Shown here one piece after another: positions 3,853 to 63,881 of a stretch of 64,000 nt of DNA (positions are counted from its first letter, which is position 1; each line of letters starts with the position of its first letter). This stretch comes from Thermoanaerobaculia bacterium (GTDB taxonomy: Bacteria; Acidobacteriota; Thermoanaerobaculia; Gp7-AA8), in assembly GCA_036488085.1 (NCBI GenBank), contig DASXHZ010000058.1, positions 69,468-133,467 of the forward strand, in the 5' to 3' direction. The notes beneath the pieces were generated by a model. That model was not told the DNA's origin, made no database searches, and saw only the letters and a list, made by a program, of their open reading frames with translations. A program made the translations under genes and the position numbers.

Positions 3853-4163
3853 GCGGCGCGAATTGTACTGCGGGGTCGCCGACGACCGTCATGGAGCGGA
3901 AAAGTTCCCGGAGACGCGGTCCGGACACCTTATGCAGCGGCTGGGACACTCCGAGATGTAGCGCCCTGGCCGCGACACCGAGCGTCCGCGCTGCGTCTCG
4001 ATGTGTCCGGCGCGACGCACGTGGTGTCCGACGTGACACCCGCGGTGTCCGACGTGACGCACCAGGTGTCCCGCGCGCTCCCCGTGGCGTCCCGCGCGAC
4101 ACGCGATACGCCGCGCGACGGCGCGATACCATTGGCCAAGCTCATGCAGTGAAGGGGTTTGCG

Positions 4164-5564
4164 ATGCCGTATCGGGTGCTGGTGATTGATGACGAGACCG
4201 CGATTCGCGAGGCGATCCGGATGACGCTCGAGTACGAGGGGTACCGCGTCGACGAGGCCCGAGGCGGTCAGGACGGCCTGGACAAGGCCACCAAGACCGC
4301 CTACGACGCGATCCTGCTCGACATCAAGATGCCGGTGCTCGATGGGATGGAAGTCCTCGAAAACCTGAAAGAGCAGCGCGTCCAGGCGCCGGTGATCATG
4401 GTTTCGGGGCACGGCGACATCTCCACCGCCGTCGACTGCACGAAGCGCGGCGCCTACGACTTCCTCGAGAAGCCGCTCAACCGCGACAAGCTGCTCCTCA
4501 CCGTCCGCAACGCGGTCCGCGTCCAGAAGCTCGAAGAAGAGAACACGGAGCTGAAGGAGAAGGCGGAGAAGGAGTACCAGCTCGTCGGCGAGTCGCAGGT
4601 GATGCGCGACCTCAAATCGCAGGTCGAGCGCGCCGCGCCGACGAAGGCGACGGTCCTCATCACCGGCGAGTCGGGAACGGGGAAGGAGCTCGTGGCGCGC
4701 GAGATCCACCGCCGCTCCTCGCGCGTCAACCAGCCGTTCGTGCAAGTGAACTGCGCCGCGATCCCGGAGGAGCTGATCGAGTCGGAGCTGTTCGGCCACG
4801 AGAAGGGCTCGTTCACCGGCGCGGTGCGCAAGCAGACGGGGAAGTTCGTCGCGGCCGACGGCGGGACGATCTTCCTCGACGAAGTCGGCGACATGTCGCT
4901 GAGGACGCAGGCCAAAGTGCTGCGCGTCCTGCAGGAAGGCGAGGTCGAGCCGGTCGGCGCCGCGACGGTGATCAAGGTCGACGTCCGCGTGATCGCGGCT
5001 ACAAACAAGGAACTGACCGAAGAGATCCGCGCCGGTCGGTTTCGCGAGGATCTCTATTACCGTCTGAACGTCATTCCCATCCGGACGCCGCCGCTACGCG
5101 AGCGCCGCGACGACATTCCGGTCCTCGGGGAGCACTTCGCGAAGCTCTTCTCCGAGGAGCACAACTTCAAGGGGAAAGCGTTCACGACGTCTGCGAAGAA
5201 GGCGTTGCAGGACGCGCCGTGGCGCGGCAATGTCCGCGAGCTGCGCAACATGATCGAACGGCTCGTGATCATGGTGCCCGCGGACAAGATCGACATCACC
5301 GATCTGCCGGCGGAGTTCTTCCGTACCTCGGGGGACATCATCGCCTCCGCGATGCGGCTCGCAACGCTGCAGGAGTTCAAGGACGAGGCGGAGAAGGCGT
5401 TCATCATCGCGAAGCTCCGCGAGTTCGGATGGAACGTCTCGAAGACGGCGGACGCGATCGACACGCCGCGTTCGAATCTCTACAAGAAGATCGAGCAATA
5501 CAACATCCGGCGTGAGGCTGGGGCAGGGGCGGCCGCTGACGATGGCGGAGATACCAGCGCATAA
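4164..5564 (+). CDS. Sigma-54-dependent Fis-family response regulator (NtrC-like: REC + AAA+ + HTH)
   Basis: MPYRVLVIDDE receiver domain, GESGTGKELVAREIH Walker A, GSFTGA motif and a C-terminal Fis HTH. GAAGGGG ribosome-binding site 7 nt upstream of the ATG. The track ORF's N-terminal extension (from 3891) was rejected. Confidence 0.88.
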   Translation: MPYRVLVIDDETAIREAIRMTLEYEGYRVDEARGGQDGLDKATKTAYDAILLDIKMPVLDGMEVLENLKEQRVQAPVIMVSGHGDISTAVDCTKRGAYDFLEKPLNRDKLLLTVRNAVRVQKLEEENTELKEKAEKEYQLVGESQVMRDLKSQVERAAPTKATVLITGESGTGKELVAREIHRRSSRVNQPFVQVNCAAIPEELIESELFGHEKGSFTGAVRKQTGKFVAADGGTIFLDEVGDMSLRTQAKVLRVLQEGEVEPVGAATVIKVDVRVIAATNKELTEEIRAGRFREDLYYRLNVIPIRTPPLRERRDDIPVLGEHFAKLFSEEHNFKGKAFTTSAKKALQDAPWRGNVRELRNMIERLVIMVPADKIDITDLPAEFFRTSGDIIASAMRLATLQEFKDEAEKAFIIAKLREFGWNVSKTADAIDTPRSNLYKKIEQYNIRREAGAGAAADDGGDTSA

Positions 5565-10775: not shown

Positions 10776-10866
10776 CGTTACCCGTTATCCGTTATCGCCG
10801 GGGCTCTCCGATAACGGGTAACGGGTAACGGATAACGCCTCTGGAAGCCTTTCACCTCGCCCAGCG
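10776..10866. repeat. Imperfect hairpin built from YCCGTTA/TAACGGR heptamers between sdaAB and sdaAA
   Basis: GCGTTACCCGTTATCCGTTATCG...CGATAACGGGTAACGGGTAACGGATAACGC. Confidence 0.8.
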
Positions 10867-22150: not shown

Positions 22151-23326
22151 ATGGCTGCGATGTCGCGGTTCACCTTCGTTTCGGCCGGCGAGTCGCACGG
22201 CCCGCAGCTCACCGTCATCGTCACCGGAATGCCGGCGGGCGTGTGTCTCGATCGCGACCGGATCAATCTCGACCTGAAGCGCCGCCAGCATGGCTACGGG
22301 CGCGGCGGCCGGATGAAGATCGAGTCGGATGAGGTGGAGATCGCCGGCGGCGTGCGCGGAGGCGAGACGCTCGGATCGCCGATCGCGATCGTGGTCCGCA
22401 ATCGCGACTACGAAAACTGGCGCGGCGCGATGGATCCGTGGACGCTCGATGAAGCGGAGACGAAGAAACGCCGCGTGCACGCGCCGCGTCCCGGCCATGT
22501 CGATCTGATCGGCGGCATGAAGTACGACCGCCGCGACCTCCGCGACGTCCTCGAACGCGCGTCGGCTCGCGAGACCGCTTCCCGCGTTGCCGCCGGCGCG
22601 ATCGGGAAGGAGCTCCTGCGCCACTTCGGCATCGAGATCCGTTCGGGGGTCGTCTCGGTGGGTGACGCCGGCGATCCCGACTACGCACCAAGCTGGGACG
22701 AGCTGGCCGCAGTCGACGACGAGTCGCCGCTCCGCGCCGTCAACCGCGAACACGAGCCGGCAATGATCGCTGCCGTCGATCGCGCGCGCGAGCTCGGCGA
22801 GACGCTCGGCGGAACGATCGTCGCCGCCGCCCGCGGCGTTCCGATTGGTCTCGGGTCATACGTTCAATGGACGGAGAAGCTCGACGGCCGCATCGCGCAG
22901 GCGATTCTGTCGATCCACGCCGTGAAAGCCGTCTCGATCGGCGACGGCGTCGCGAACGCCCGCCGCCTCGGCTCCGAGGTGCACGACCCGATCGAGTTCG
23001 ACGGCGCGTACAAGCGGACCTCGAATCGCGCCGGCGGTCTCGAAGGCGGTGTCACGAACGGTGAGGACGTCGTCGTCCGTGCCTACATGAAGCCGATCTC
23101 CACGCTCCGCCGCGGCCTGCCGTCGGTCGACATCGAGACGCACGAGGCGCACCGCTCGCAGTGGGAGCGGAGCGACGTCACTGCCGTGCCGGCCTGCGGC
23201 GTCGTCTGCGAGGCGATGCTCGCGATCGCCCTGGCCGACGCCATGCGCGAGAAGTTCGGCGGCGACTCCCTCGCCGAGATGCGCCGCAACTACGACGCCT
23301 ACATCGCACAGCTCGCGCGCTTCTGA
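22151..23326 (+). CDS. aroC: Chorismate synthase
   Basis: RFTFVSAGESHGP N-terminus and conserved AroC blocks. An alternative start is at 22160. Confidence 0.9.
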   Translation: MAAMSRFTFVSAGESHGPQLTVIVTGMPAGVCLDRDRINLDLKRRQHGYGRGGRMKIESDEVEIAGGVRGGETLGSPIAIVVRNRDYENWRGAMDPWTLDEAETKKRRVHAPRPGHVDLIGGMKYDRRDLRDVLERASARETASRVAAGAIGKELLRHFGIEIRSGVVSVGDAGDPDYAPSWDELAAVDDESPLRAVNREHEPAMIAAVDRARELGETLGGTIVAAARGVPIGLGSYVQWTEKLDGRIAQAILSIHAVKAVSIGDGVANARRLGSEVHDPIEFDGAYKRTSNRAGGLEGGVTNGEDVVVRAYMKPISTLRRGLPSVDIETHEAHRSQWERSDVTAVPACGVVCEAMLAIALADAMREKFGGDSLAEMRRNYDAYIAQLARF

Positions 23327-23365
23327 TCCGCTCCTGGCGCTTCTGTGTGGTTCTGCCACACAGAA
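23327..23365 (+). terminator. 12-bp-stem hairpin (GCTTCTGTGTGG/CCACACAGAAGC) directly after the aroC stop
   Basis: Perfect inverted repeat with a 5-nt loop; no U-tract. Confidence 0.4.
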
Positions 23366-23760
23366 GCCAGTCTGCAGCCCGCAAACGCGGAGTTGCACCC
23401 TGCATCCGCCAGTCTGCAGCCCGCAAACCCGCAGTTGCAGCCTGCATACGGCGGTCTGCACCGCCGCACACACGGGGATGCAGCCTGCATACGGCGGTCT
23501 GCACCGCCGCGCACACCGGGATGCACCCTGCATACGGCGGTCTGCACCCCCGCACACACCGCGATGCGGCCTGCAACCGGCGGTCTGCGCCCCCGCACAC
23601 GCCGGGATGCAGCCTGCATACGGCGGTCTGCACCCCGCAGACACCGGGATGCGCCCTGCATACGGCGGTCTGCACCCCGCAGACACCGAGATGCACCCTT
23701 GCATACGGCGGTCTGCACCCCGCAGACACCGAGATGCACCCTGCATCCGGCGGGCGACGG
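23366..23760. repeat. Tandem array: two ~44-bp units followed by about eight 42-43-bp units (ATGCAGCCTGCATACGGCGGTCTGCACC...)
   Basis: Head-to-tail direct repeats read in the sequence. Each unit carries the dyad ATGCAGcCTGCAT and CGGCGG-TCTGCA-CCGCCG. Confidence 0.85.
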
Positions 23761-23887
23761 CGTGCATCGCGAGGTGTGCTCCGTGCAACTGGCGATTTCC
23801 CCGCCGCATCTGAGGTGTGGCGACGGCAATCTTGCCGGCGACGGTCGCCAGACAGAAGCGGCGGGTTCGGTCATACTCGTTCGCGGC

Positions 23888-24991
23888 ATGCGGCATCTGT
23901 TTCCGGTCACGAAAAACCTCGTCTACTTCAACCACGCGGCCGTTGGGCCGCTGTCGACGCGGGCGGCCGAGGCGATGGAGCGGTTCGTCCGCGACCAGCG
24001 CGACTACGGGGCCTTGCACTGGCGGGAGTGGTACGCCGAATACGACCGTTTCCGCGAGTCGGCGGCGCGGCTGTTGAACGCCGAGCCGGGCGAGATCGCG
24101 ATCCTGAAGAACACGAGCGAGGCGCTCTCGTTCGTGGCGCAGGGGATCCGCTGGCGCGCCGGAGACAACGTGGTCACGACCGCGCTGGAGTTCCCACCGA
24201 ACGTCTCGCCATGGCGCAGTCTCGAGCCGCGGGGAGTCGAGACGCGCGTCGCGAAGAATGCGACGGTCGCGGAGATCGCGCCGCTGGTCGACGAGCGGAC
24301 GCGTGTCGTCACGGTCGCATCGGTCGCGTTCCACAACGGCTTCGTGGCGGACCTCGACGCCATCGGCGATTTCTGCGCCGAACGTCAAATTCTCTTCTGT
24401 GTGGATGCCATCCAGTCCCTCGGCATGCTGCCGCTCGACGTCCGCCGCGCCAAGATCTCCTTCCTCGGCGCCGACTCGCACAAGTGGATCTGCGGTCCCG
24501 AGGGGGCGACCATCTTCTTCGTGGCGCGGGAGCAGATCGAGGAGCTGGACGTCTTCGAGCACGGCTGGACGAACGTGGTGCGTCGCGGCGCCAGCTTTCT
24601 CGATGCATCGACGCAACTTGTACCCGACGCGAAGCGCTTCGAGGCGGGATCGCTGAACAGCGGCGGCATCCACGCCGCCCGCGCCGCGATCGACCTCTTG
24701 CTGGAGGTGGGAATCGACGAGATCGCTCAGCGCGTCATCGCGGTGGCCACGTCCCTGGCAGACGGATTGGAGTCGATCGGCTACCGCGTCGTGCGCCCGA
24801 TCCGCTCCGGAATCGTCGCCGCCGCTCCACAGGGAGTAGACGGCCGCGAGTTGCTCCGCCTCCATGGCGAGCTCGAAAAAGAGCGTGTGATCTGCTCTCC
24901 GCGCGAAGGGATGCTGCGGTTTTCGCCGCATTTCTACAACACCACCGAAGAGGCGGAACGCGTCGTCGAGGTACTGAGCCGGTTACACTAG
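23888..24991 (+). CDS. PLP-dependent class V aminotransferase (cysteine desulfurase / selenocysteine lyase-like)
   Basis: GADSHKWICGPEG PLP-lysine block. The N-terminal 181 codons of the track ORF are translated tandem repeat and were rejected. Confidence 0.75.
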   Translation: MRHLFPVTKNLVYFNHAAVGPLSTRAAEAMERFVRDQRDYGALHWREWYAEYDRFRESAARLLNAEPGEIAILKNTSEALSFVAQGIRWRAGDNVVTTALEFPPNVSPWRSLEPRGVETRVAKNATVAEIAPLVDERTRVVTVASVAFHNGFVADLDAIGDFCAERQILFCVDAIQSLGMLPLDVRRAKISFLGADSHKWICGPEGATIFFVAREQIEELDVFEHGWTNVVRRGASFLDASTQLVPDAKRFEAGSLNSGGIHAARAAIDLLLEVGIDEIAQRVIAVATSLADGLESIGYRVVRPIRSGIVAAAPQGVDGRELLRLHGELEKERVICSPREGMLRFSPHFYNTTEEAERVVEVLSRLH

Positions 24992-40488: not shown

Positions 40489-41071
40489 TGTGAAGACGCT
40501 TCTCACGCTCGCGGTCGGTTGGTGCCTCGGCGCACTCGTCGTGTTTGCGATGGACAAAATGAGTCCTCGGGCCTCAGTCCTCGGGCCTCGGATGACGTCA
40601 TCTGAGGTCCGAGGTCCGGGGTCCGAGGTCTCCGCGAATGGCCTGCTCATCCCGGTCGCCGGCGTGAACGCCCACCAGCTCACGGACACCTTCACGCAGG
40701 CGCGGAGCGGCGGGCGGTCGCACGACGCGATCGACATTCTCGCGCCGCGAGGAACACCGGTCGTCGCCGCGGTGGACGGGACGATCCGGAAGCTTTTCTT
40801 CTCTCGCGCGGGCGGCATCACCATCTACGAGTTCGACGCCTCGCAACGCCGCGTCTATTACTACGCGCACCTCGACCGTTATGCCGACGTGCGCGAGGGG
40901 ATGCCGGTCCGGCGCGGCCAGGTGATCGGCTATGTCGGAACCACCGGCAACGCCCCGGCGTCGACGCCTCATCTTCACTTCGCAATAGAGGACCTGCCTG
41001 CTACAAAAGAATGGTGGAAGGGAAGCGCGATCAATCCGTACCCGCTCTTGACGGCATCGAAGTTTCATTAG
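40489..41071 (+). CDS. M23 family metallopeptidase (LytM domain) with N-terminal membrane anchor
   Basis: [20 protein letters not shown] and HLHFAI motifs. GTG start gives [20 protein letters not shown]. Confidence 0.75.
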
Positions 41072-49393: not shown

Positions 49394-49509
49394 CGTGACT
49401 CGTGATTCGTGACTCGTTATTCGAAGGACGGTCCCTGAGATGACGGATAACGGATAACGGATAACGGCCGTCCATGACGCCGAATAACGAGTCACGAATC
49501 ACGAGTCAC
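49394..49509. repeat. 116-bp palindromic element. Perfect 30-bp arms made of CGTGAYT heptamers flank an inner GGACGG/CCGTCC stem and (ATAACGG)x3
   Basis: Read directly. It shares the GGATAAC/GTTATCC heptamer with the element at 10776-10866. Confidence 0.85.
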
Positions 49510-49629
49510 GACATCGGAACAACTCCCGTACACCCGCTGTTGCCCTGTATCCAATACCGCGAGTAACATACGCGGTCCCACCGTCCTCGTGGACCGAGTG
49601 ACAATCTCTGAAAGGTAATAACGACCCAC

Positions 49630-62345: not shown

Positions 62346-63881
62346 ATGCGGCTCTCGCTGCGCATCCTCCAGGCCGGCGCGATCGCCGTGGTCGTCGCCG
62401 TCTCGACGTTCCACGCCTTCGAGCTCGATCGCTTCTTCGTCGCGAAGGAGCTGGTGCTGCACGTCGTGGCGGTCCTGGCGGCGCTCTTCGCGTGGCGAGG
62501 GCTCCGTAACCTAGAGACCACGCGGCTCGACTGGCTGCTCACCGCCTTCCTTGGCCTCAGCGCGCTCTCGGCACTCTTCGCCACGAATCGCTGGCTCGGC
62601 CTCCGAGGTCTGGCGGTCAGCGTTTCGAGCGTGCTGATTTTCTGGGCGGCGCGGACGCACGGCCGCGCCCTCGCCGGTGCGCTCGCATTCGCGGTCATCG
62701 TGGCCGCGGTGACGTCGCTGCTGCAGACCTACGGCCTCGACATGGAGCTCTTTTCCGAGAACCGCGCTCCCGGTGGGACCCTGGGCAACCGCAACTTCAT
62801 CGCACACGTCGCCGCGTTCGGGATGCCGCTGCTGCTCTTCATGACGATCACCGCGCAGCGCTACCGCACGTTTCTCTGGAATGCGATCGGGACCGCGCTC
62901 GTGACGGCGTCGCTGGTGATCACGCGCTCGCGCGCGGCGTGGCTGGCGTTCGCCGCGATGCTGGTGGTGCTGCTCTTCGCGCTCCTTGCCGCGCGATCTC
63001 TGCGCCGCGATGGCCGTACTTGGCGGCGCCTCGGGTTCACGATCGTGGTTGCGGTGATTGCGACCGGCGCTGTGCTCGTTCTTCCGAACGCGCTCCACTG
63101 GCGCAGCAAGAACCCGTACCTGGAGTCGATCCACAAGGTCGCCGACTATCAGGGGGGGAGCGGGCGGGGACGCCTCATCCAATATGAGCGCACCCTCGGG
63201 CTGGCTCTGCGGCATCCAGTGTTCGGCGTCGGCCCCGGCAACTGGGCGGTCGAGTATCCAACGCGCGCACCCGGAAGCGATCCCTCGATGAACGAGTCGG
63301 AGCCGGGGATGACGATGAATCCGTGGCCGAGTAGCGACTGGGTGGCCTTCGTCGCCGAGCGAGGACCCATCGCCGCGGTGCTTCTCGGACTCTTCTTCCT
63401 CGGCGTCATCCGTCTCGGATTCCGGCAGCTGTTCTCCGCGTCCGACGCCGACTCTGCACTCGCCGCGGTTGCGCTCCTCGGCGTGGTCGCGGGCGCACTC
63501 GTCTCCGGCCTCTTCGACGCCGTACTCCTCACCGCCGTCCCCGCCTACATCGTCTTCGCATCCATCGGCGCGCTTCTAAGTGTGGCGCCGGCAGTCCTGC
63601 CGGCGACTCCGTCATCTAAATCCAGCGTCTTCATCTTCCTCATCGTGATCTCCGCCGTGGGTGCCTGGCGCAGCGGATCGCAGCTCGTCGCGATGGACAT
63701 CTACACGACCGCCGGCACGCGCGCTCAACTCGAGCGGGCGTCGCAGATCGATCCCGGCAACTTCCGTCTCCACCTCCGACTCGCACGCGGCGGAAAGCAG
63801 CGGTGCGCTCACGCGCGGGCCGCCCACGCGCTCTACCCGTCGGCGCAGGTCGCGAAGCAGTTGGCGCGCGGCTGCGGCTAA
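62346..63881 (+). CDS. O-antigen ligase family (Wzy_C) membrane protein
   Basis: About 10 TM helices. ITRSRAAWLAF and GVGPGNW motifs of Wzy_C. Short TPR-like C-terminal tail. Confidence 0.6.
   Translation: MRLSLRILQAGAIAVVVAVSTFHAFELDRFFVAKELVLHVVAVLAALFAWRGLRNLETTRLDWLLTAFLGLSALSALFATNRWLGLRGLAVSVSSVLIFWAARTHGRALAGALAFAVIVAAVTSLLQTYGLDMELFSENRAPGGTLGNRNFIAHVAAFGMPLLLFMTITAQRYRTFLWNAIGTALVTASLVITRSRAAWLAFAAMLVVLLFALLAARSLRRDGRTWRRLGFTIVVAVIATGAVLVLPNALHWRSKNPYLESIHKVADYQGGSGRGRLIQYERTLGLALRHPVFGVGPGNWAVEYPTRAPGSDPSMNESEPGMTMNPWPSSDWVAFVAERGPIAAVLLGLFFLGVIRLGFRQLFSASDADSALAAVALLGVVAGALVSGLFDAVLLTAVPAYIVFASIGALLSVAPAVLPATPSSKSSVFIFLIVISAVGAWRSGSQLVAMDIYTTAGTRAQLERASQIDPGNFRLHLRLARGGKQRCAHARAAHALYPSAQVAKQLARGCG

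What the first reader, a model, noticed from the sequence alone, without database searches (positions are those of the whole stretch)
23366..23887. Tandem array of 42-43-bp repeats with internal dyad symmetry in front of a PLP-dependent enzyme gene
The 42-43-bp unit ATGCAGCCTGCATACGGCGGTCTGCACC(G/C)CCGCACACACCGGG repeats about 8 times, preceded by two related 44-bp units. Every unit contains two dyad elements, ATGCAG-C-CTGCAT and CGGCGG-TCTGCA-CCGCCG, which suits binding by a dimeric protein. The array ends ~90 bp before the ATG at 23888. This is not a CRISPR array because it has no unique spacers. It could be a phase-variable or copy-number-variable promoter, a multi-site operator or a structured RNA leader.
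Basis: seen in the sequence. Interest (0 to 1): 0.6.

Follow-up and report, generated by a model that had tools for sequence, protein, structure and literature searches.

The report
Strain-variable intergenic minisatellite, 42-43 bp units
A real, non-coding run of nine 42-43-bp repeats lies between two housekeeping genes of an uncultured acidobacterium; near-identical strains carry 7, 9 or 10 copies and more distant relatives carry none, so it is most likely an ordinary young minisatellite rather than a regulatory device.

Summary
The array is real: window 23370-23753 holds 9.0 head-to-tail units of 42-43 bp (TRF score 483). Each unit is two ~21-bp half-units with the core TGCAnCCnGCAnAC. The divergent leading units are 42 bp, not 44. 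Its second dyad, CGGCGG/CCGCCG, is perfect in only 2 of 9 units. The array ends 134 bp before the ATG, not ~90.

The organism is an uncultured Thermoanaerobaculia (Acidobacteriota). The array lies in a 561-bp spacer between aroC and a class-V aminotransferase gene. Three near-identical assemblies carry 9 (window), 10 (100% identical flanks, unit 1 duplicated) and 7 units (about 98% identical, interior units replaced). In relatives at 85-91% nucleotide identity the array is absent. In three of those lineages the aroC stop overlaps the aminotransferase start (TGATG).

The array is non-coding. It matches no Rfam family, plasmid or phage, and it has no second copy in the 64-kb window or in any collection I could scan. 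The units do not share one RNA fold, and the dyad arms are not significantly better conserved than the linkers.

Best reading: a young, lineage-specific, copy-number-variable minisatellite in a recently acquired spacer. A protein-binding array in the style of sopC, or a BOX-like mobile element, is not excluded. Interest is low.

The parts
22151..23326 (+). aroC (chorismate synthase), the upstream gene; its stop codon TGA is at 23324-23326
   Evidence: Pfam PF01264, E 1.3e-108. The exact protein is found on JGI contig Ga0376664_0000053.
23327..23887 (+). 561-bp lineage-specific spacer that holds the array. It is absent in relatives, where the aroC stop and the aminotransferase ATG overlap (TGATG).
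   Evidence: It is unique within the window.
23339..23367 (+). Perfect 12-bp-stem hairpin (GCTTCTGTGTGG ttctg CCACACAGAAGC) just after the aroC stop. No T-run follows it, so it is not a canonical intrinsic terminator.
   Evidence: the repeat finder I22. The terminator scan found nothing here. L127 keeps the arms with a 12-nt larger loop.
23370..23753 (+). The tandem array: 9 units of 42-43 bp, starting at 23370, 23412, 23454, 23497, 23540, 23583, 23626, 23668 and 23711. Each unit is two ~21-bp half-units with core TGCAnCCnGCAnAC. The + strand is C-rich (C 157, G 112 of 384).
23762..23787 (-). Inverted (reverse-complement) partial copy of a unit directly after the array. It could pair with the last unit.
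   Evidence: the repeat finder I5 (26 nt, 73%) and I13 (16 nt, 88%).
23328..23350 (+). Left arm of a terminal-inverted-repeat-like pair that bounds the spacer.
   Evidence: the repeat finder I6: 23 nt, 78% complementary to 23848-23870. This is only suggestive.
23848..23870 (+). Right arm of the same pair. It contains GCCAGACAGAAGC, a direct copy (12 of 13) of the right arm of the hairpin.
   Evidence: the repeat finder I6 and D4.
23849..23877 (+). Promoter-like element: CAGACA (23849-23854), a 17-nt spacer, then CATACT (23872-23877), ending 10 nt before the ATG. The -10-like motif (G/C)ATACTCGT is shared at the same distance by relatives that also have a spacer.
   Evidence: Read from the sequence and from alignment A2. 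It falls below the tool's sigma-70 threshold, so this is an inference.
23888..24991 (+). Class-V aminotransferase / cysteine-desulfurase-like gene (367 aa), the downstream gene. The JGI gene calls of 409 and 430 aa that start inside the spacer or array are over-extensions.
   Evidence: Pfam PF00266. Most orthologues are 365-385 aa and align from the same start residue. GC1/2/3 of the extension is flat.

Best explanation
The array is a young, lineage-specific minisatellite (a variable-number tandem repeat) with no dedicated partner protein.

Shown:
- A 561-bp spacer separates aroC from a class-V aminotransferase gene in this lineage. In three related lineages these two genes overlap (TGATG).
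- The spacer holds 9 units of 42-43 bp.
- Near-identical strains carry 7, 9 or 10 units.

Inferred:
- A ~21-bp motif containing a dyad (TGCA-N3-TGCA / GTCTGC-N5-GCAGAC) first doubled into a 42-43-bp unit. That unit then multiplied head to tail, by slipped-strand mispairing in replication or by unequal recombination. The same processes now add, remove and replace units.
- The dyads and the ~21.5-bp (two-turn) phasing are inherited from the seed, not maintained by a binding protein.
- The main consequence is passive. About 560 nt of untranslated, C-rich, hairpin-rich sequence breaks the ancestral translational coupling. The aminotransferase gene is then probably expressed from the promoter-like CAGACA-17-CATACT element that ends 10 nt before its ATG.
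For: 1. The array is real and far beyond chance.
2. Copy number differs between near-identical strains. L001 is 100% identical to the window over 9.1 kb except for an exact 42-bp duplication of unit 1, giving 10 units. L127, at 95-98% nucleotide identity, has 7 units: the first three and the last are kept and the interior ones are replaced. Conserved edges with a variable interior are typical of minisatellites.
3. It is lineage-restricted. Relatives at 85-91% nucleotide identity lack it. L128, L136 and L133/134/135 have aroC TGA overlapping the ATG. L137 has a 25-bp spacer. L129/L130 have an unrelated 175-bp spacer containing a roughly 30-bp-stem palindrome.
4. It is non-coding. GC1/2/3 is 0.70/0.71/0.68, against 0.68/0.45/0.86 in the flanking genes. 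ORFs across it match no Pfam family at or above its cut-off.
5. I found no evidence of constraint. Variable columns number 6 of 22 in the dyad arms and 12 of 22 elsewhere (Fisher p = 0.12). In the GTCTGC/GCAnAC dyad only one arm varies.
6. I found no relatives or second copies. There is no Rfam hit, no plasmid or phage match and none in viral contigs. The 185,579 GTDB representative genomes gave only 5 isolated single 19-mer matches and no array (one search confirms this for 4 of the 5 loci, L005 was not inspected). The 64-kb window has no other copy. Translating the array on both strands found no spurious ORF from a sister array among 5.8 billion proteins.
Against: - All 18 half-unit dyads are phased at 21-22 bp, which puts them on one face of the helix. 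That is also what a protein-binding array would look like, for example sopC of plasmid F, which has 12 units of 43 bp (PMC3177203).
- The spacer has TIR-like ends (23 nt, 78%), which hints at a composite mobile element rather than purely local growth.
- The rest of this organism's genome could not be searched, so 'unique' rests on 64 kb plus exact-match scans.
- The metagenome scan was wasted on chance hits.
- Copy numbers come from short-read assemblies, not from spanning reads.
- No expression data exist, so the promoter and the loss of coupling are inferences.
Confidence: 0.65

Rival explanations
1. Protein-binding array. The 18-20 dyads (TGCA-N3-TGCA and GTCTGC-N5-GCAGAC), phased every ~21.5 bp on one face of the DNA, would be sites for a dimeric DNA-binding protein. 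The array would act as a multi-site operator, an upstream activating platform, a decoy for that protein, or a sopC-like centromere.
For: - The dyads are real and phased at 21-22 bp, with a unit of 42-43 bp, about 4 helical turns.
- This is the same geometry as F sopC: 12 units of 43 bp, each with an inverted repeat bound by a SopB dimer. sopC-like arrays also vary from 3 to 17 units (PMC3177203).
- 26 of 44 unit columns are invariant, including GTCTG and CC-TGCA.
Against: - There is no parA/parB, rep or regulator gene next to it. The neighbours are lgt, an ankyrin-repeat gene, aroC, the aminotransferase, rmuC and trpG-D-C-F.
- It is absent from all relatives that share those neighbours, so no conserved protein can depend on it.
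- The dyads are imperfect, differ between unit types, and are not significantly better conserved than the linkers.
- No plasmid matches it.
- It lies on housekeeping chromosomal DNA.
Confidence: 0.1
2. Composite mobile element of the pneumococcal BOX type. The whole 561-bp spacer would be a non-autonomous element with inverted-repeat ends (left module 23327-23369, right module 23754-23870) and an expandable central module, the 42-43-bp unit. It would have inserted between aroC and the aminotransferase gene, and further copies would exist elsewhere in the genome.
For: - The ends are 23 nt long and 78% complementary (I6). A third copy of the hairpin arm lies near the right end (D4). An inverted partial unit closes the array (I5, I13).
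- The architecture is the same as boxA-(boxB)n-boxC, where the number of boxB units varies between strains and long arrays vary most (PMC3049150).
- The aroC/aminotransferase junction has acquired unrelated palindromic inserts in other lineages (L129, L131). This suggests the junction is prone to such insertions.
Against: - No second copy of any module occurs in the 64-kb window or in any scanned collection.
- No clear target-site duplication is visible (TGAT on one side, TCAT on the other).
- The TIR-like match partly just reflects the local hairpin sequence.
- No transposase gene is nearby.
Confidence: 0.15
3. RNA-level element. Transcribed with aroC, the array would form a string of hairpins. 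These would protect the aroC mRNA from 3' exonucleases, attenuate or terminate read-through into the aminotransferase gene (possibly through Rho on the C-rich RNA), or sequester an RNA-binding protein in the manner of CsrB/RsmZ.
For: - Both flanking genes are on the + strand, so read-through transcription is plausible.
- The RNA folds much better than shuffles (z = -7.3 on +, -6.5 on -).
- The + strand is C-rich and G-poor (GC skew -0.14 to -0.18; C 157 against G 112).
- BIME and BOX elements are reported to attenuate or stabilise transcripts (PMC3049150).
Against: - Both strands fold equally well, as any dyad-rich DNA would.
- The MFE structure has about zero frequency in the ensemble, and units 1-2, 3-6 and 7-9 fold differently, so there is no shared fold.
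- No Rfam match exists, even in permissive mode.
- GGA motifs occur in only 5 of 9 units (read from the unit sequences).
- Relatives have no counterpart.
- No compensatory changes are seen; only one arm of the GTCTGC/GCAnAC dyad varies.
Confidence: 0.08
4. Assembly artefact. The array or its copy-number differences would come from mis-assembly of short reads.
For: Tandem arrays of about 400 bp with 85-100% similar units are hard for short-read assemblers. Two related contigs end close to this junction (L131, L132).
Against: - The array appears with the same flanks and the same unit order in three independent assemblies, drawn from at least two samples (window; 3300036793; 3300036797).
- Almost every unit carries its own substitutions, which gives a unique assembly path.
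- The 10-unit allele differs by one clean 42-bp duplication, and that duplicated pair (84 bp) should fit within one typical short read (read lengths for these samples were not checked).
Confidence: 0.03

Closest known systems
Bacterial intergenic minisatellites / VNTRs such as MIRU of Mycobacterium tuberculosis
   Same: Units of tens of bp (MIRU units are about 40-100 bp) repeated head to tail between genes of one operon, with copy number differing between closely related strains.
   Different: MIRUs form a dispersed family of about 40 loci, and they carry small ORFs that keep translational coupling with the flanking genes. Here only one locus is known, the 42/43-bp mix cannot keep a reading frame, and coupling is lost.
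Pneumococcal BOX elements, boxA-(boxB)n-boxC (PMC3049150)
   Same: An intergenic composite: partly complementary end modules around a tandemly repeated central module whose copy number varies between strains. Predicted to form stem-loops if transcribed.
   Different: BOX is a dispersed family in a low-GC firmicute, with proposed TIRs and target-site duplications. Here there is no sequence similarity, no second copy was found, and no clear target duplication is visible.
sopC centromere of plasmid F (PMC3177203)
   Same: Direct tandem repeats of 43 bp (about four helical turns), each with an internal inverted repeat. Copy number is variable (3-17) among sopC-like arrays.
   Different: sopC has one well-conserved 16-bp inverted repeat per unit, lies next to sopA/sopB on plasmids of Enterobacteriaceae, and is bound by SopB. 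Here there are two imperfect dyads per unit of unrelated sequence, on chromosomal housekeeping DNA, with no par genes within about 5 kb on either side.
REP/BIME clusters of enterobacteria and plasmid iterons (stated from my own knowledge)
   Same: Imperfect palindromes repeated in intergenic regions of operons (BIME), and about 20-22-bp directly repeated protein sites phased by two helical turns (iterons).
   Different: In BIMEs the REPs alternate in orientation and occur at hundreds of loci. Iterons lie in replication origins next to a rep gene. Neither applies here.

Membership tests
Variable-number tandem repeat (minisatellite) | Head-to-tail copies of a unit of roughly 10-100 bp | tested here: met
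   TRF gives period 43, 9.0 copies, 87% matches and score 483. Unit lengths are 42-43 bp.
Variable-number tandem repeat (minisatellite) | Copy number differs between closely related genomes | tested here: met
   9 units in the window, 10 in L001 (flanks 100% identical) and 7 in L127 (95-98% identical). These are assemblies, not spanning reads.
CRISPR array | Conserved repeats separated by unique spacers of similar length | tested here: not met
   The units abut one another with no unique spacers.
sopC / ParB-type plasmid centromere | Tandem units of about 43 bp | tested here: met
   Units are 42-43 bp. sopC has 12 units of 43 bp (PMC3177203).
sopC / ParB-type plasmid centromere | One conserved 16-bp inverted repeat in each unit | tested here: not met
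   The dyads are 11-17 bp, there are two per unit, and they are perfect in only 2-4 of 9 units.
sopC / ParB-type plasmid centromere | Adjacent parA/parB (sopA/sopB) genes on a plasmid or near an origin | tested here: not met
   The neighbours are lgt, an ankyrin-repeat gene, aroC, the aminotransferase, rmuC and trpG-D-C-F. No plasmid matches the array.
BOX-like composite repeat / MITE | End modules with inverted-repeat complementarity around a repeated central module | tested here: inconclusive
   The ends are 23 nt long and 78% complementary (I6), but this overlaps a local hairpin sequence.
BOX-like composite repeat / MITE | Many dispersed copies in the same genome | tested here: inconclusive
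   There are none in the 64-kb window and none in the scanned collections. The rest of this genome was not available.
BOX-like composite repeat / MITE | Target-site duplication at the insertion | tested here: inconclusive
   The flanks read TGAT and TCAT (3 of 4 matching) against the empty site TTCTGATGCG.
Any Rfam RNA family | Score at or above the family's gathering threshold | tested here: not met
   There are 0 hits at gathering thresholds. The best permissive hit scores 23 bits against a 70-bit threshold.
CsrB/RsmZ-type protein-sponge RNA | A GGA motif in every repeat, exposed in a loop or linker | tested here: not met
   GGA is present in 5 of 9 units (read from the unit sequences), and no common fold exposes it.
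Plasmid iterons | About 20-bp direct repeats at a replication origin beside a rep gene | tested here: not met
   A ~21-bp half-unit period is present, but there is no rep gene within about 5 kb on either side and no plasmid match.

The most novel reading that the evidence does not exclude
The array is a newly evolved functional protein-binding platform. Its 18-20 dyads lie on one face of the helix in 43-bp (four-turn) units, as in the F-plasmid centromere sopC. They would be bound cooperatively by a dimeric protein of this lineage, as a decoy, a nucleoid-organising site or an upstream regulatory array, and copy number would tune the dose. That would be a chromosomal, recently born analogue of a plasmid centromere or operator array in an uncultured acidobacterium.
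Probability: 0.07. Interest if true: 0.6.

Novelty: new member of a known kind. Interest (0 to 1): 0.22.

Why it matters
As it stands, little: it adds one more example of a strain-variable intergenic minisatellite, in a poorly studied class (Thermoanaerobaculia).

It has two modest uses. First, it is a ready strain marker for this population across the related metagenome samples, which carry 7, 9 and 10 copies. Second, it gives a clean before-and-after view of an operon junction. Ancestrally overlapping genes (TGATG) are split by a 561-bp insert, with a promoter-like element just before the downstream gene.

It also warns annotators. Gene callers extended the aminotransferase by 42 or 63 spurious residues into the spacer and array.

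If the phased dyads did turn out to bind a protein, it would be a rare case of a multi-site array caught at birth.

Tried and rejected
- **Metagenome scan.** The gapped pattern CGGCGGTCTGC-N28-36-CGGCGGTCTGC was too permissive.
- **Genome scan.** The exact 19-mer gave 5 isolated single matches in unrelated MAGs, about what chance predicts by my rough estimate, and no array.
- **Exact-protein look-ups.** The 367-aa window protein and P0123 are not on record. The rmuC look-up returned only the two contigs already known.
- **Translated-array searches.** I translated the array on both strands, as a proxy for finding sister arrays mis-called as genes. There were no hits.
- **CsrB-like sponge idea.** Rejected: only 5 of 9 units have GGA, and there is no common loop.
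- **G-quadruplex on the G-rich strand.** Rejected by reading the unit sequence, with no computation: the G-runs are about 17-21 nt apart, too far for canonical quadruplexes.
- **Coding repeat.** Rejected: a 42/43-bp period cannot keep a frame, GC1/2/3 is flat and there is no Pfam hit.
- **Constraint on the dyad arms.** Tested and not significant (p = 0.12).
- **Possible proto-unit in the L129 spacer.** TGCATGCCGCAAACG resembles TGCAGCCCGCAAACG (13 of 15). By my own rough estimate this is borderline chance (p about 0.07), and blastn did not report it. It remains an untested lead.
- **Plasmid and phage collections.** No match.

Full report

Yes in substance. Tandem Repeats Finder reports an array at window 23370-23753 with period 43, 9.0 copies, 87% matches and score 483, by far the strongest array in the window. 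It also reports a sub-period of 21. Splitting on the anchor GTCTGC gives nine units starting at 23370, 23412, 23454, 23497, 23540, 23583, 23626, 23668 and 23711, each 42 or 43 bp long.

A 26-mer from the unit occurs 5 times (up to 3 mismatches) against 0.00 expected. The half-unit core TGCANCCNGCANAC occurs 12 times in the array against 0.55 expected for the whole window, with one chance-level hit elsewhere.

- There are 9 units in all, not about 8 plus 2.
- The two divergent leading units are 42 bp, not 44.
- ATGCAG-C-CTGCAT is perfect in 2 units. The 5+5 form is in 4, and TGCA-N3/4-TGCA is in 7 of 9.
- CGGCGG-N6-CCGCCG is perfect in only 2 of 9 units.
- A better second dyad is GTCTGC-N4-6-GCAGAC, which is perfect in units 7-9 and 5/6 in 8 units.
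- The array ends 134 bp before the ATG, not about 90.

**2. Anatomy**

Each unit is two related ~21-bp half-units, and each half-unit carries a short dyad (GTCTGC-ACCCC-GCAGAC and ATGCA-CCC-TGCAT). That gives 18 dyads with centres 21-22 bp apart, about two helical turns.

An alignment of the 12 distinct units from two strains has 26 invariant columns out of 44.

The array lies inside a 561-bp intergenic spacer (23327-23887), which also contains the following.
- A perfect 12-bp-stem hairpin lies just after the aroC stop (23339-23367, I22). No T-run follows it.
- An inverted partial unit lies just after the array (23762-23787, I5 and I13).
- The ends are 23 nt long and 78% complementary (23328-23350 and 23848-23870, I6).
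- A promoter-like CAGACA-17 nt-CATACT (23849-23877) ends 10 nt before the ATG. I read this from the sequence. It falls below the scan's sigma-70 threshold.

The + strand of the array is C-rich (C 157, G 112 of 384; GC skew about -0.14 to -0.18). It is non-coding: GC at codon positions 1/2/3 is 0.70/0.71/0.68, against 0.68/0.45/0.86 in the flanking genes. ORFs that cross it match no Pfam family at or above its cut-off.

**3. Context**

The upstream gene is chorismate synthase, aroC (22151-23326). Downstream lie a class-V aminotransferase / cysteine-desulfurase-like gene (23888-24991), then rmuC, then trpG, trpD, trpC and trpF. Further upstream are lgt and an ankyrin-repeat gene. This is ordinary chromosomal housekeeping DNA. 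No tRNA gene and no Rfam family is present in the window.

Named homologues of the aminotransferase are all from Thermoanaerobaculia / Acidobacteriota MAGs.

**4. Comparison with relatives, the decisive evidence**

Exact-protein look-ups recovered the same locus in other assemblies.

| Locus | Similarity to window | State of the aroC / aminotransferase junction |
|---|---|---|
| L001 (JGI 3300036793, 92-kb contig) | 100% over 9.1 kb | 10 units; exact 42-bp duplication of unit 1 |
| L127 (JGI 3300036797) | 95-98% | 7 units; first three and last kept, interior replaced; hairpin loop 12 nt longer |
| L128, L136, L133/L134/L135 | 86-91% | No array; aroC TGA overlaps the ATG (TGATG) |
| L137 | about 90% | No array; 25-bp spacer |
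| L129/L130 | about 88% | No array; unrelated 175-bp spacer with a roughly 30-bp-stem palindrome |
| L131, L132 | 84-89% | No array in the 60 or 163 bp of upstream sequence held; a hairpin (L131) or what reads as a divergent gene start (L132) lies upstream |

The overlapping state occurs in three separate lineages, so it is most simply the ancestral one. The array-bearing spacer is therefore a recent acquisition of one narrow lineage, and within that lineage the copy number varies (7, 9, 10).

Lineages that have any spacer share a motif, (G/C)ATACTCGT(A/T)C, 10-11 nt before the ATG. In three of them it reads TGTGATACT, which looks like an extended -10. I infer that this is the gene's own promoter once coupling to aroC is lost.

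**5. Searches for relatives of the repeat**

Nothing was found.
- Rfam gave nothing at gathering thresholds. In permissive mode it gave only chance-level hits.
- blastn against 72,556 plasmids and 50,697 phage records found no match.
- The most conserved 19-mer gave 0 hits in viral contigs. In 185,579 representative genomes it gave 5 isolated single matches and no array (one search confirms this for 4 of the 5 loci, L005 was not inspected).
- The window holds no second copy of any part of the spacer.
- As a proxy for sister arrays mis-called as genes, I searched translations of the array on both strands against 5.8 billion proteins. There were no hits.
- My one metagenome scan used too loose a pattern. 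That test failed and cannot be repeated.

**6. How it most likely works**

The pattern is that of a young minisatellite. It is restricted to one lineage. One allele differs by an exact unit duplication. The interior turns over while the edges stay conserved. Runs of adjacent near-identical units (1-2, 3-6, 7-9) point to local duplications.

I infer that it grew by slipped-strand mispairing or unequal recombination from a ~21-bp seed containing a dyad.

I found no sign that the dyads are maintained by selection. Variable columns number 6 of 22 in the arms and 12 of 22 elsewhere (p = 0.12). In the GTCTGC/GCAnAC dyad only one arm varies. Units of different types adopt different predicted folds.

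Both strands fold far better than shuffles (z = -7.3 and -6.5). This is expected of any dyad-rich repeat and does not single out a strand or a structure.

The likely consequence is passive. The ancestral translational coupling is broken by about 560 nt of untranslated, hairpin-rich sequence, and the downstream gene relies on the promoter-like element next to its start.

**7. Rivals**

- **Protein-binding array** (operator, decoy or sopC-like centromere). The geometry is close to F sopC, which has 12 units of 43 bp, each with an inverted repeat bound by SopB, and sopC-like arrays vary from 3 to 17 units (PMC3177203). Against it: there are no par or rep genes or regulator nearby, the array is absent in relatives with the same neighbours, and the dyads are imperfect. 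I give it about 0.1.
- **BOX-like composite mobile element.** BOX elements are boxA-(boxB)n-boxC, with the number of boxB units varying between strains (PMC3049150). This fits the TIR-like ends and the expandable centre, but no second copy is known. I give it about 0.15. It is compatible with the VNTR behaviour.
- **RNA-level role** (mRNA stabiliser, attenuator, Rho entry site or protein sponge). This has no specific support: there is no common fold, GGA occurs in only 5 of 9 units, and no Rfam family matches. I give it about 0.08.
- **Assembly artefact.** This is unlikely, because three assemblies from at least two samples agree on the flanks and the unit order. I give it about 0.03.

**8. 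Verdict**

The promoter, operator and RNA-leader readings are not.

It is a new member of a known kind, a bacterial intergenic VNTR, and of low interest. The main residual curiosity is the sopC-like four-turn phasing of the dyads.

Noticed in passing
window 10776-10837, 40562-40630, 49394-49511: Three intergenic long inverted repeats have arms that are themselves tandem heptads. Examples are (CGTTATC)3 ... (GATAACG/GGTAACG)4 and (CCTCGGG)4 ... (GAGGTCC)4. The third is a near-perfect ~30-bp inverted repeat of CGTGACT/CGTGATT-type heptads that encloses (GGATAAC)3. GATAACG-type heptads recur at two of the loci. By my own GC3-based gene map (ORFs not confirmed by homology), one locus lies right after a stop codon and two lie between divergent genes. 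This may be a family of heptad-periodic hairpin elements or operator sites. The sequences are unrelated to the 43-bp array.
   Followed up: partly
window 23699-23887; L001 5591-6883; L127 2979-4208: The JGI gene calls extend the aminotransferase by 63 aa (430 aa, TTG start inside the array) or by 42 aa (409 aa, start in the spacer just after the array). Most orthologues are 365-385 aa, and the extension has flat codon-position GC. These are annotation artefacts caused by an open frame across the repeat.
   Followed up: yes
L129 2828-2912 (also L130): In a relative at 86% protein identity, the aroC/aminotransferase junction instead carries an unrelated, nearly perfect palindrome with a stem of about 30 bp (GGGGAGCGGACGTCTCGTCCGCTCATGCCGCGCG...CGCGCGGCATGAGCGGACGAGACGTCCGCTCCCC). 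L131 has yet another hairpin there. The junction seems to collect palindromic inserts repeatedly.
   Followed up: partly
window 23870-23887; L129 2982-3000; L131 42-60; L132 145-163: A conserved motif, TGTGATACTCGTAC (GGTCATACTCGTTC in the window), lies 10-11 nt before the aminotransferase ATG in all lineages where the gene does not overlap aroC. In L132 I read the opposite strand as starting a divergent gene (ATGCAA...) only about 20 bp upstream of the ATG. The motif looks like an extended -10 that would give a very short leader, and no Shine-Dalgarno sequence is visible.
   Followed up: partly
window 4003-4129: A 21-bp tandem repeat (4.7 copies, 72% matches) is followed by a 19-bp repeat. 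Both lie inside the ORF at 3891-5564 (GC3-selected), so this is probably a coding repeat. I did not examine it further.
   Followed up: no
window 23815-23842 and 63580-63607: A 28-nt stretch of the spacer (GTGTGGCGACGGCAATCTTGCCGGCGAC) matches a site inside an ORF 40 kb away at 89% identity (E 0.007 within the window). This is probably chance.
   Followed up: no
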